DNA of 25,327 bases. Source: a virus (lineage: Duplodnaviria > Heunggongvirae > Uroviricota > Caudoviricetes). The stretch lies in IMG/VR virus record IMGVR_UViG_2526164664_000023. One strand, written 5' to 3'. Shown piece by piece: positions 3,001 to 6,000 of this stretch. The stretch's first letter is position 1; the number at the start of each line of letters is the position of its first letter. The position numbers are program-made.

Positions 3001-6000
3001 CGTCATGGGGAGCGCCGAAGTGATGACCATAGATATTCTTTTTCAGGCCACATGCGATTGAGGCAAGAGTTGCGCTACTGATGCCAACATCGCCAGTCGA
3101 TTGCCATTTCAAAACCTTCATAGACAAATCTGACATTTCTTGTCTCCAATAAAAAAACCTCCATCAGGCGGCTTGGTGTTCTTTCAGTTCTTCAATTCGA
3201 ATATTGGTTACGTCTGCATGTGCTATCTGCGCCCATATCATCCAGTGGTCATAGCAGTCATTGATGTTCTCTGCTTCGATAACTCTGTTGAATGGTTCTC
3301 CATTCCATTCACCTGTGACTCGGAAGTGCATTTATCATCTCCATAAAACAAAATCCGCCGTAGCGAGTTCAGATAAAAGAAATCCCCGCGAGTGCGAGGA
3401 TTGTTATTCATTGCCGATATTCACCTTTATCGCGAACACCTTTACCGGTTTATCACCGAAGTGCGGATGTGTGATTGTCTTGATTTCATATCCGTCATAC
3501 GGAACATCAATTCTGCGGCTGGAATCGTCGCGCTTCGGATATCCCTTTGTGATAATCAGGCGGTCATACTCCCGGAACATATGAGGTAGCCTGAGTTTAA
3601 CGGACACTCCTTCCTGAAATAGAATGGCATCAGAAGGAGCTAATAATGAGCAGAAAAACCCAACGTTACTCTAAAGAGTTCAAAGCCGAAGCTGTCAGAA
3701 CGGTTCTTGAAAATCAACTTTCGATCAGTGAAGGCGCTTCCCGATTATCTCTTCCTGAAGGCACTTTAGGACAATGGGTTACCGCCGCCAGAAAAGGGCT
3801 CGGTACTCCTGGTTCCCGCACGGTGGCTGAACTGGAATCTGAAATTCTGCAACTGCGTAAGGCGTTAAATGAAGCTCGCCTTGAGCGAGATATATTAAAA
3901 AAAGCAACAGCGTATTTTGCACAGGAGTCGCTGAAAAATACGCGTTAATCGAACAATGGCGACAACAATTTCCCATTGAAGCGATGTGTCAGGTATTTGG
4001 TGTATCCAGGAGCGGTTATTACAACTGGGTACAGCATGAACCCTCAGACAGAAAACAAAGTGATGAGCGGCTAAAACTGGAGATTAAGGTGGCACATATC
4101 CGCACTCGCGAAACATATGGAACCCGGCGGCTCCAGACGGAGCTGGCAGAGAATGGCATCATCGTTGGTCGTGACCGACTGGCACGTCTTCGTAAGGAGC
4201 TAAGGCTACGCTGTAAGCAGAAACGCAAGTTCAGAGCGACTACGAACTCGAACCACAATCTGCCAGTTGCGCCAAATCTGCTGAACCAGACGTTCGCTCC
4301 TACAGCACCAAATCAGGTCTGGGTGGCGGACCTGACGTATGTTGCCACACAGGAGGGATGGTTGTACCTCGCTGGCATCAAAGATGTTTATACGTGCGAA
4401 ATTGTCGGCTACGCCATGGGAGAGCGCATGACAAAAGAGCTGACAGGTAAAGCTCTGTTTATGGCGCTCAGGAGCCAGCGCCCACCTGCCGGGCTAATCC
4501 ACCACTCTGATCGAGGTTCACAGTACTGCGCATACGATTACCGGGTCATACAGGAGCAGTTTGGTCTGAAAACATCAATGTCGCGTAAAGGTAACTGTTA
4601 CGACAACGCTCCGATGGAAAGCTTCTGGGGAACGCTGAAAAATGAGAGCCTGAGCCACTATCGTTTTAATAACCGGGATGAAGCCATCTCAGTAATACGG
4701 GAATACATTGAGATTTTCTACAATCGTCAGCGTCGTCACTCTCGTCTGGGGAATATCTCCCCGGCAGCCTTCAGGGAAAAATATCATCAGATGGCTGCTT
4801 AAAAAAAGAACAAATGGTAGTGTCCGCTATTGCCAGTACACCTCAATAATTCGCTTATTCCAATAGTCATTACACAGGCGATACTCTTCCGTTTTCTCTC
4901 CTCGAATCATGGCATCGAAGTATTCACCTTTGACGGCAAGTTGTAGGTTAGCCACGGTTAACCTCCTGCGGAGTAGCCTTTACAAGCACTGGTGCAAATC
5001 CATCTTCATTAAGGTTATGAATATAGACTTCTGTTCTCCTGCGCTCTTCAACGTTTAATATTGTTTCTGGATCATAAACCCATACTTTCATTCGACTATT
5101 CCATGAAGAAATCGCTTCAGATCTAGTTCGTTTTTCTGGTCCTTGGGCACCACATTTGCATGACACATAGCGCATTTTCCCTCTGATACTGAATGAGTAT
5201 CCGATGTTAAGCACAGTGGAACCACAGAATGGGCAGCGATATAGATTCATAAATCATCCACCTTAGGCGCAGCTGAGACAGCAACATTCCAGAACTCAGA
5301 AAACATATTGTATGCACCAGATAGATTGGAAGTAGCATACCCTCCAAGCTCACTTCTAATCTGAACGGCTCTCATCATTTCCGGGGTTAACTCCTTCGGC
5401 ACCATAACCCAACCATCCGGAGTTACCGGAGAGTTGCCACCGGGAATATTTTCCGGAATATTTTGTTGTGCGTTTTGTGGTTGTTCTGATTTACCCTGAA
5501 GCATGGCGGCGCGGCAGGCGTTCCAGCCAGCTGTTCGCCCAAGCGCGTAAACTTCAGATGGATCAAGATAATCAATGTCATGCCCGTCCTCATCGTCGTT
5601 CTCAGGTAATGCAGCAGGTACTACCGGTACTGGCGGAGCGGCGTAGACCTCAATAATTCCATTATCAATAGGCCATTCTCCATCCTTGAGGTAGTCACTT
5701 GTGCCGTCAACTTGCTGTTCTGCAATGTGGAATGCACCTATTGGTTTTGCTTCCAGCGATGCCAGAGCAATCCGTGCCAGTTCCATTTGTTCGCCACTAG
5801 TAAGTCCGTTATCAAGCGGGGATTTAATGAACAATTCGATACGTTCTTTAGTGATAGTGCTCATATCACTCTCCTTTGATGCGAATGCCAGCTGCGCTTG
5901 CTGATTCTTCATATGCGCGTTTAGCAGCGTTAAGGATTGCTGCCAGTGGCGTATAGCCGCCATCCATTCGGATTGTGTTGTGGATGCCAGCCATTGTGTC

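What the first reader, a model, noticed from the sequence alone, without database searches (positions are those of the whole stretch)
3582..4845. Intact IS3-family element with programmed -1 frameshift inserted in the early-left operon
The element is exactly 1264 bp, has imperfect terminal inverted repeats (TGAGGT...GGACACT), flanking ATA direct repeats, orfA and orfB in the 0/-1 arrangement and an A7G slippery run at 3897-3904. It lies in the pL operon with its transposase in the opposite orientation to pL transcription, and may be polar on xis/int expression from pL.
Basis: seen in the sequence. Interest (0 to 1): 0.4.

Follow-up and report, generated by a model that had tools for sequence, protein, structure and literature searches.

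The report
IS600 copy inside a lambdoid prophage

Summary
The element at 3582-4845 is 1264 bp. It has imperfect terminal inverted repeats (19 of the first 27 positions match), flanking ATA direct repeats, orfA and orfB in the 0/-1 arrangement, and an A7G run at 3897-3904.

It is IS600 of the IS3 family. It is 100% identical over its full length to many copies that RefSeq names IS600 in EHEC plasmids, chromosomes and Stx phages. The -1 fusion protein matches the IS3 transposase model end to end.

Related O26:H11 genomes carry the same site unoccupied, with a single ATA. Deleting the element plus one ATA restores a 94-aa protein that RefSeq labels ASCH-domain, residue for residue. This is therefore a simple transposition with a 3-bp target duplication that disrupts a gene.

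The host is a lambda-type prophage at the ybhC site. The element lies downstream of a pL-like promoter and N and upstream of xis and int, with its transposase antisense to pL.

The exact junction was found in no other public sequence searched, so the insertion appears strain-private. Polarity on xis/int is untested. It is probably weak, because the operon encodes N and has native terminator-like hairpins downstream of the insertion.

Verdict: already known, low interest.

The parts
3579..3581 (.). Left copy of the 3-bp target site duplication (ATA)
   Evidence: the unoccupied site in O26:H11 str. 11368 reads GGAACATAATTCGC, with one ATA.
3582..3608 (+). IRL, the left terminal inverted repeat of IS600 (TGAGGTAGCCTGAGTTTAACGGACACT)
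   Evidence: 19 of 27 positions match the reverse complement of the right end; the same terminus is used in six other IS600 copies.
3597..3625 (+). Sigma-70-like promoter (TTAACG, 17-nt spacer, TAGAAT) partly inside IRL and upstream of orfA; probable native transposase promoter
   Evidence: it is the only promoter-like match in 2400-5400. Its function is inferred, not shown.
3646..3948 (+). orfA (100 aa): HTH_Tnp_1 DNA-binding domain followed by a leucine-heptad segment
3897..3904 (+). Slippery run A7G; the in-phase heptamer A AAA AAA is 3897-3903, and -1 slippage moves reading into the orfB frame at 3903
   Evidence: for the codon phase; the fusion made at this point matches the IS3 transposase model end to end.
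3646..4802 (+). OrfAB transposase (385 aa), produced by a -1 frameshift at 3903; catalytic residues D229, D289, E325 plus K332
   Evidence: The start and stop coincide with RefSeq's 'programmed frameshift' CDS on an identical copy.
3885..4802 (+). orfB reading frame (-1 relative to orfA; first ATG at 3984), carrying the rve integrase-core DDE domain
4819..4845 (-). IRR, the right terminal inverted repeat of IS600
4846..4848 (.). Right copy of the 3-bp target site duplication (ATA)
4849..4955 (-). 5' fragment of the interrupted 285-bp gene (RefSeq label: ASCH domain-containing protein, WP_000002107.1). The truncated ORF runs into IRR and stops at 4829-4827.
3404..3581 (-). 3' fragment of the same interrupted gene
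   Evidence: removing 3582-4848 restores the 94-aa RefSeq protein exactly.
3381..3402 (-). Native terminator-like hairpin with a T-tract, just after the stop codon of the interrupted gene and downstream of the IS in the pL direction
2717..2732 (-). Second native terminator-like hairpin, between the insertion and xis
2467..2685 (-). xis (excisionase), downstream of the IS in the leftward operon
   Evidence: identical to the excisionase annotated in strain H19.
1419..2489 (-). int (lambda-type tyrosine integrase, 356 aa) next to ybhC
10789..11133 (-). N antiterminator gene, upstream of the IS in the same operon
   Evidence: PF25694, E = 5.6e-32.
11252..11280 (-). pL-like promoter (TTGCCA, 17-nt spacer, TAAAGT), followed by a boxA-like GCTCTTTAA and hairpins
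   Evidence: These are consensus matches; function is inferred.

Best explanation
The segment 3582-4845 is a complete and probably active copy of IS600 (IS3 family).

It inserted by ordinary transposition into a 285-bp accessory gene of a lambda-type prophage integrated next to ybhC in an O26:H11/O111:H11-like EHEC genome. The insertion duplicated the 3-bp target ATA and split the gene after about 107 nt.

By analogy with other IS3-family elements, it is expected to work as follows. A weak promoter in IRL drives orfA. At the A AAA AAA G run, a fraction of ribosomes slip back one base and make the OrfAB fusion, which is the DDE transposase. OrfA alone and OrfB probably act as regulators.

The shown effect on the prophage is loss of one non-essential early-left gene. 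The transposase gene is antisense to pL transcription. Polarity on xis and int is probably small, because pL transcription in this phage should be made termination-resistant by N. That last step is inferred, not shown.
For: - Identity: the full 1264 bp is 100% identical to copies annotated 'IS3-like element IS600 family transposase' in EHEC plasmids and to IS600 in Stx phages. It is also identical to an annotated intact chromosomal copy.
- Empty site: O26:H11 str. 11368 and four Stx1a phage records carry the joined flanks at 99.9%. Alignment against str. 11368 shows a single ATA at the site.
- Gene restoration: removing the IS and one ATA restores WP_000002107.1 exactly.
- Termini: five other simple IS600 insertions in related prophages use the same ends and have perfect 3-bp duplications (GAT, CTC, CCC, AGC).
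- Transposase: the fusion protein matches NF033516 over 1-369/369 at 414.5 bits. It has HTH_Tnp_1, HTH_21 and rve domains, and the triad D229, D289, E325 plus K332.
- Promoter: the only promoter-like match in the region lies in IRL upstream of orfA.
- Context: the gene map comes from a collinear 99.8% match to strain H19. N matches a Pfam model, and a pL-like promoter and boxA-like sequence precede it.
- Native terminator-like hairpins lie downstream of the insertion.
- Published behaviour: IS600 is mobile in STEC and can be excised by IEE; the same paper refers to a 3-nt target sequence for IS600 (PMC9397093).
Against: - Frameshifting and transposase activity are inferred from sequence; nothing here measures them.
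- No significant stimulatory RNA structure was predicted downstream of the slippery run (z = -1.48), and there was no Rfam match.
The name rests on RefSeq and published annotation of identical copies.
- The exact junction was not found in any other public sequence, so this particular insertion has no independent confirmation.
- The assembly shows homopolymer indel errors elsewhere.
- The IS places about 1.5 kb of untranslated RNA in the pL transcript and contains two weak terminator-like hairpins on that strand. Some polarity therefore cannot be excluded.
Confidence: 0.95

Rival explanations
1. The IS600 insertion is strongly polar. It blocks pL-driven xis and int expression and so locks the prophage in place, as a step in prophage domestication.
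For: - The IS puts about 1.5 kb of untranslated RNA between the truncated gene's stop at 4827 and the next minus-strand gene start at 3331.
- The antisense RNA has slightly more C than G (321 vs 297), and the IS has two weak terminator-like hairpins on the minus strand.
- By the annotation of the 99.8%-identical H19 prophage, other genes in this prophage type are degraded: a truncated antiterminator, a frameshifted DUF6645 gene and a TolA-like pseudogene.
- Related strains carry IS600 directly in int.
Against: - The operon encodes an apparently intact N (PF25694), preceded by a boxA-like sequence.
- N-modified RNA polymerase is classically known to override both Rho-dependent polarity and intrinsic terminators, including polarity caused by IS elements. 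This is established knowledge recalled from memory, not retrieved here.
- Stronger native terminator-like hairpins already lie between the site and xis (3402-3381 and 2732-2717), so transcripts that reach xis must be antiterminated anyway.
- int and xis themselves are intact and identical to those of strain H19.
Confidence: 0.2
2. The insertion is an assembly artefact: an IS600 copy placed at the wrong position by a long-read assembler.
For: - No other public genome, phage or metagenome contig has this junction.
- The window has many homopolymer runs that are one base short compared with strain H19, which is typical of uncorrected long-read assemblies.
Against: - The junctions are base-perfect, with the exact IS600 termini.
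- There is a perfect 3-bp duplication of a sequence present once in the empty site. A misassembly would not create that.
- The rest of the window is collinear with reference genomes.
Confidence: 0.03
3. The copy is a dead relic: it looks intact but is not transposition-competent.
For: No functional data were obtained here, and no frameshift-stimulating RNA structure was detected.
Against: - There are zero differences from many other copies spread over plasmids, chromosomes and phages, which indicates recent copying.
- Both ends, the duplication, the reading frames and the DDE residues are intact.
- IS600 is experimentally mobile and excisable in STEC, which requires active transposase (PMC9397093).
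Confidence: 0.04

Closest known systems
IS600 (IS3 family, IS3 group), first described in Shigella sonnei and abundant in Shigella and non-O157 STEC
   Same: The sequence is 100% identical over 1264 bp to copies annotated IS600. Termini, 3-bp duplication, orfA/orfB layout and slippery run are all the same.
   Different: Only the location differs. This exact insertion point was not found in any other sequence searched.
IS911, IS3 and IS150, the experimentally studied IS3-family models
   Same: All share TG...CA ends and 3-4 bp duplications. All have OrfA with an HTH and leucine zipper, a -1 frameshift on an A-rich heptamer giving OrfAB, and a DD(35)E catalytic core with a K seven residues after the E.
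   Different: In the orfA frame the heptamer here is A AAA AAA followed by G, whereas I recall (not checked here) A AAA AAG in phase for IS911. No downstream stimulatory structure was detected. The mechanism is carried over by homology and has not been shown for IS600 here.
Other IS600 insertions in the same prophage module (E. coli NIID080884, 2014C-3051, 06_3044, 10205, 96_1414B)
   Same: They are the same element in the same early-left region. One lies 8 bp away in the same gene and in the same orientation.
   Different: They have different target triplets (CCC, GAT, CTC, AGC) or adjacent deletions without a duplication, so they are independent events.
IS600 in lacZ of STEC O121:H19, with IEE-mediated excision (PMC9397093)
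   Same: It is the same element, also oriented opposite to the host operon, and it inactivates a gene reversibly.
   Different: There the phenotype and the excision were demonstrated experimentally. Here the interrupted gene has no known phenotype, and the presence of IEE in this genome is unknown.

Membership tests
IS3 family insertion sequence | Length of about 1.2-1.55 kb with imperfect terminal inverted repeats ending 5'-TG...CA-3' | tested here: met
   The element is 1264 bp. IRL starts TGAGGT and the right end finishes ACCTCA. The arms match at 19 of 27 positions.
IS3 family insertion sequence | Short target site duplication (3-4 bp), shown by comparison with an empty site | tested here: met
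   ATA flanks both ends. The empty site in NC_013361 has one ATA. Removing the IS and one ATA restores the host protein exactly.
IS3 family insertion sequence | Two overlapping reading frames in phases 0 and -1, with an A-rich slippery heptamer in the overlap | tested here: met
   orfA is 3646-3948. The orfB frame is open from 3885 to 4802 in the -1 phase. The run A7G lies at 3897-3904, inside the overlap.
IS3 family insertion sequence | The OrfAB fusion is actually produced by programmed -1 ribosomal frameshifting | not testable with these tools
   The evidence is sequence-based only. The in-silico fusion matches the family model end to end. No stimulatory structure was detected.
IS3 family insertion sequence | DDE transposase with an rve core, DD(35)E spacing and a K/R seven residues after the E | tested here: met
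   PF00665 rve, E = 5.9e-26. NF033516 scores 414.5 bits against a cutoff of 160. Residues are D229, D289, E325 and K332.
IS600 (named element) | At least 95% nucleotide identity over the full length to the reference IS600 (ISfinder isoform criterion) | tested here: inconclusive
   The element is 100% identical to many copies that RefSeq names IS600. The ISfinder or original S. sonnei reference sequence itself was not available for comparison.
Lambdoid early-left (pL) operon | A leftward promoter next to the repressor gene, an N antiterminator with a nut-like site, and same-strand genes running through recombination functions to xis and int at the attachment site | tested here: met
   Present are a pL-like promoter and boxA-like sequence, N (PF25694), and ERF, kil and cIII. 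Also present are lambda-type xis and int beside ybhC. Promoter activity itself was not tested.
ASCH-domain protein (the interrupted gene) | Match to an ASCH domain profile | tested here: not met
   The restored 94-aa protein gave no Pfam match at E <= 0.01. The ASCH label comes only from RefSeq annotation of the identical protein WP_000002107.1.

The most novel reading that the evidence does not exclude
The early-left accessory region of this prophage family, and the 285-bp ASCH-labelled gene in particular, may be a preferred landing site for IS600. Three independent hits in that one gene were seen, two of them 8 bp apart. If so, recurrent insertions and IS-adjacent deletions there would be a regular route by which O26/O111-type EHEC disable or immobilise this prophage.
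Probability: 0.12. Interest if true: 0.3.

Novelty: already known. Interest (0 to 1): 0.07.

Why it matters
It matters little beyond strain-level bookkeeping. IS600 is a long-known element and is abundant in Shigella and non-O157 STEC. IS insertions in prophage accessory regions are routine.

The insertion could serve as a strain-specific marker for IS-based typing. If it were polar, it could reduce prophage excision, but the evidence here suggests otherwise.

Tried and rejected
- Same-site occupancy. The first search with the IS plus flanks listed six genomes with at least 80% coverage. Inspection showed that their IS600 copies sit at other positions, and the tool had joined separate pieces. 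Junction-spanning queries then showed that no complete E. coli genome or phage record shares the junction. Exact 30-mer scans of the genome, viral and metagenome collections also found nothing.
- Orientation bias. All the surveyed copies are antisense to pL. I rejected this as evidence because the query design only joins same-strand pieces. In addition, an oppositely oriented copy is annotated in 2014C-3051, in its cIII-proximal region.
- Frameshift-stimulating RNA. The Rfam scan of the window gave no match. The fold of 3880-4010 was not better than shuffled sequences (z = -1.48).
- Circle-junction promoter. IRR contains TTGCCA near its tip, and joining it to IRL across 3 bp gives only a poor -10 (TAGCCT at an 18-nt spacing). 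This is too weak to claim.
- Literature. A search for the classical work on N suppression of IS polarity, and one for the original IS600 description, found nothing usable in the held library. Those points are marked as background knowledge.
- Target gene domain. A Pfam search for an ASCH domain in the target gene was negative.

Full report
**Observation**

- The segment 3582-4845 is 1264 bp.
- Its left end (TGAGGTAGCCTGAGTTTAACGGACACT) and the reverse complement of its right end (TGAGGTGTACTGGCAATAGCGGACACT) match at 19 of the first 27 positions. The matches include TGAGGT at the tip and CGGACACT at positions 20-27.
- ATA lies immediately outside both ends (3579-3581 and 4846-4848).
- orfA runs 3646-3948. 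A second frame, -1 relative to orfA, is open from 3885 to the stop at 4802.
- A run of seven A followed by G occupies 3897-3904, within the overlap.
- In the orfA frame the codons read TTA AAA AAA GCA, so the in-phase heptamer is A AAA AAA and the G is the next base.

**Identity**

The 1264 bp is 100% identical over its full length to many plasmid copies annotated 'IS3-like element IS600 family transposase'. In the plasmid collection 890 records match, 782 of them at 99% or more, and they come from Escherichia and Shigella. It is also identical to copies in 89 Stx-converting phage records.

I built the OrfAB fusion by slipping back one base after the second AAA codon, which gives 385 aa.
- It matches NCBIfam NF033516 (IS3 family transposase) over model positions 1-369 of 369, at 414.5 bits against a cutoff of 160.
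- It carries the Pfam domains HTH_Tnp_1, HTH_21 and rve.
- The catalytic residues are D229, D289 and E325, with K332 seven residues after the E. The end of OrfA has a leucine heptad pattern.
- Its start and stop coincide with RefSeq's 'programmed frameshift' CDS on an identical copy in strain NIID080884.

**Proof of transposition**

A query made by joining the two flanks with one ATA matched four Stx1a phage records at 99.9% over its full length. Many O26:H11 chromosomes carry the same flanks without the IS.
- In O26:H11 str. 11368 the site reads ...CTCCCGGAACATAATTCGCTTATTCC..., with a single ATA.
- Shifting the element boundaries by one base in either direction does not give a consistent duplication, so ATA is the unique solution.
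- Removing 3582-4848 from the window restores, residue for residue, the 94-aa protein WP_000002107.1. RefSeq labels it 'ASCH domain-containing', but Pfam did not confirm a domain.

The IS therefore disrupts a gene on the minus strand after about 107 of 285 nt. The truncated N-terminal ORF runs 19 nt into IRR before it stops.

**Context**

The rest of the window is collinear, at 99.8%, with a prophage found in 91 complete E. coli genomes of the O26:H11/O111:H11 type.

Using the annotation of strain H19, the window reads from left to right:
- ybhC, the chromosomal gene beside the lambda attachment site;
- int, xis and two small ORFs;
- the interrupted gene;
- a Lar-like ORF, an ea22-like gene, an anti-RecBCD gene, ERF, kil and cIII;
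- sieB and N;
- a LexA-family (cI-like) repressor, a small ORF in the cro position and cII;
- O, P, ren and the nin genes;
- a truncated antiterminator, lpxR, Q and the start of the late region.

Supporting details:
- N matches PF25694 at E = 5.6e-32.
- Upstream of N lie a pL-like promoter (TTGCCA, 17-nt spacer, TAAAGT; 11280-11252, minus strand), a boxA-like GCTCTTTAA and small hairpins.
- int (356 aa, with an Arm-binding domain) and xis are identical to those annotated in H19.

So the IS does lie in the leftward early transcription unit, about 6.3 kb downstream of N and about 0.9 kb upstream of xis. Its transposase is on the opposite strand.

**Occupancy in related strains**

This needed care. 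The first search with the IS plus flanks returned six genomes with apparent full coverage, but the tool had joined separate pieces. In each of them the IS600 copy sits somewhere else. A script mapped every copy:

| Strain | Position | Duplication |
|---|---|---|
| 2014C-3051 | Lar-like ORF | GAT |
| NIID080884 | int | CTC |
| NIID080884 | same ASCH-labelled gene, 8 bp left of this insertion | CCC |
| 10205 | int of a torS-site phage | AGC |
| 96_1414B | next to a large deletion reaching the O gene | none |
| 06_3044 | next to a 159-bp deletion inside the ASCH-labelled gene | none |

These copies validate the element's termini and its 3-bp duplication rule.

Junction-spanning queries found no complete E. 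coli genome or phage record with this exact junction. The 30-mer across the left junction is absent from the genome, viral and metagenome collections. The insertion therefore looks private to the source strain.

All the surveyed copies have the same orientation. That is a product of how pieces are joined by the search tool, and it is not evidence of an orientation preference.

**Mechanism**

Three things are shown by sequence: an intact IS600, a simple insertion with a target duplication, and loss of one small accessory gene.

The rest is inferred from the IS3 family.
- A weak promoter in IRL drives orfA. The only sigma-70-like match in 2400-5400 is TTAACG, 17-nt spacer, TAGAAT at 3597-3625.
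- Ribosomes occasionally slip back one base on A AAA AAA G to make the OrfAB transposase.
- No stimulatory RNA structure was detected. Rfam gave no match, and the fold z-score of -1.48 is not significant.
- IS600 is known to be mobile in STEC and to be excised with the help of IEE. The same paper refers to a 3-nt target sequence for IS600 (PMC9397093). IS600 insertions in O26 Stx1 phages have also been described (PMC10042803).

**Polarity on xis and int**

Points in favour of polarity:
- The insertion introduces about 1.5 kb of untranslated RNA into the pL transcript.
- The IS contains two weak terminator-like hairpins on that strand.

Points against:
- The phage encodes N together with a nut-like site.
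- Stronger native terminator-like hairpins already lie between the insertion and xis (3402-3381 and 2732-2717). Only antiterminated transcription would reach xis and int in any case.
- It is established background knowledge, not retrieved here, that N-modified polymerase overrides Rho-dependent polarity, including polarity caused by IS elements.

I put strong polarity at about 0.2.

**Assembly quality**

Compared with H19, the window has 49 differences over 24 kb. Nineteen are indels, and most of these are homopolymer runs one base shorter in the window. This is the signature of an uncorrected long-read assembly.

It explains the apparent frameshifts in the O gene and elsewhere, and it warns against reading those as real. 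The IS itself has no such difference from other copies. The perfect duplication makes a misassembly very unlikely.

**Verdict**

The element is IS600, it disrupts a gene, it is probably neutral for the prophage, and the insertion is strain-private. It is a known element behaving in a known way, so interest is low.

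Noticed in passing
window 3151, 9174, 9984, 13732, 14316, 20259, 20517, 21471, 22785 (and others): Compared with strain H19, the window is one base short in many homopolymer runs. This is typical of uncorrected long-read assembly errors. It splits the O replication gene into overlapping ORFs (13489-14757), and these splits are probably not real frameshifts.
   Followed up: partly
window 23297-23852: A dense cluster of about 30 substitutions and small indels relative to H19 lies inside the gene annotated as DUF6645 (frameshifted in H19). Everything else is nearly identical. This suggests a recombination patch or a hypervariable segment.
   Followed up: no
window 3404-4955; L003 3563-4826; L007 2096-3359: The 285-bp ASCH-labelled gene has been hit by IS600 three independent times. 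The hits are this window (ATA), NIID080884 8 bp away (CCC), and 06_3044 with a 159-bp adjacent deletion and no duplication. This may be a local hotspot, but the sampling was biased towards this region.
   Followed up: partly
L006 4283-5546 (E. coli 96_1414B): An IS600 copy without a target duplication joins the early-left region directly to the middle of the replication gene O. This is an IS-associated deletion that removes the whole immunity region of the related prophage.
   Followed up: partly
window 4948-5250 (-): A single 100-aa ORF has a Lar restriction-alleviation domain at its N-terminus (PF14354). RefSeq annotates the same sequence as two features: a partial Lar pseudogene and a 47-aa hypothetical protein.
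   Followed up: partly
window about 19069-21410: By the H19 annotation, a truncated antiterminator fragment is followed by a lipid A deacylase gene, lpxR (19284-20243, minus strand), and then a second, complete Q antiterminator. This looks like a cargo gene inserted at a replaced Q region.
   Followed up: no
window 4801-4808: A second A7G run overlaps the orfB stop codon (TAAAAAAAG) near the right end of IS600. No role is apparent.
   Followed up: no
window 9117-9863 (-): A 248-aa ORF corresponds to a gene annotated in H19 as a 'TolA' pseudogene with an internal stop. It lies between cIII and sieB and has no Pfam match. Two of the homopolymer indels fall near or in it.
   Followed up: no
window 11470-11510 (-): A strong GC-rich hairpin with a T-tract (CCCGGCCTCAGCGCCGGGTTTTCTTT) sits upstream of the pL-like promoter. 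It probably terminates the repressor operon, which carries two small unannotated-function ORFs downstream of cI. The simple terminator scan did not list it.
   Followed up: no
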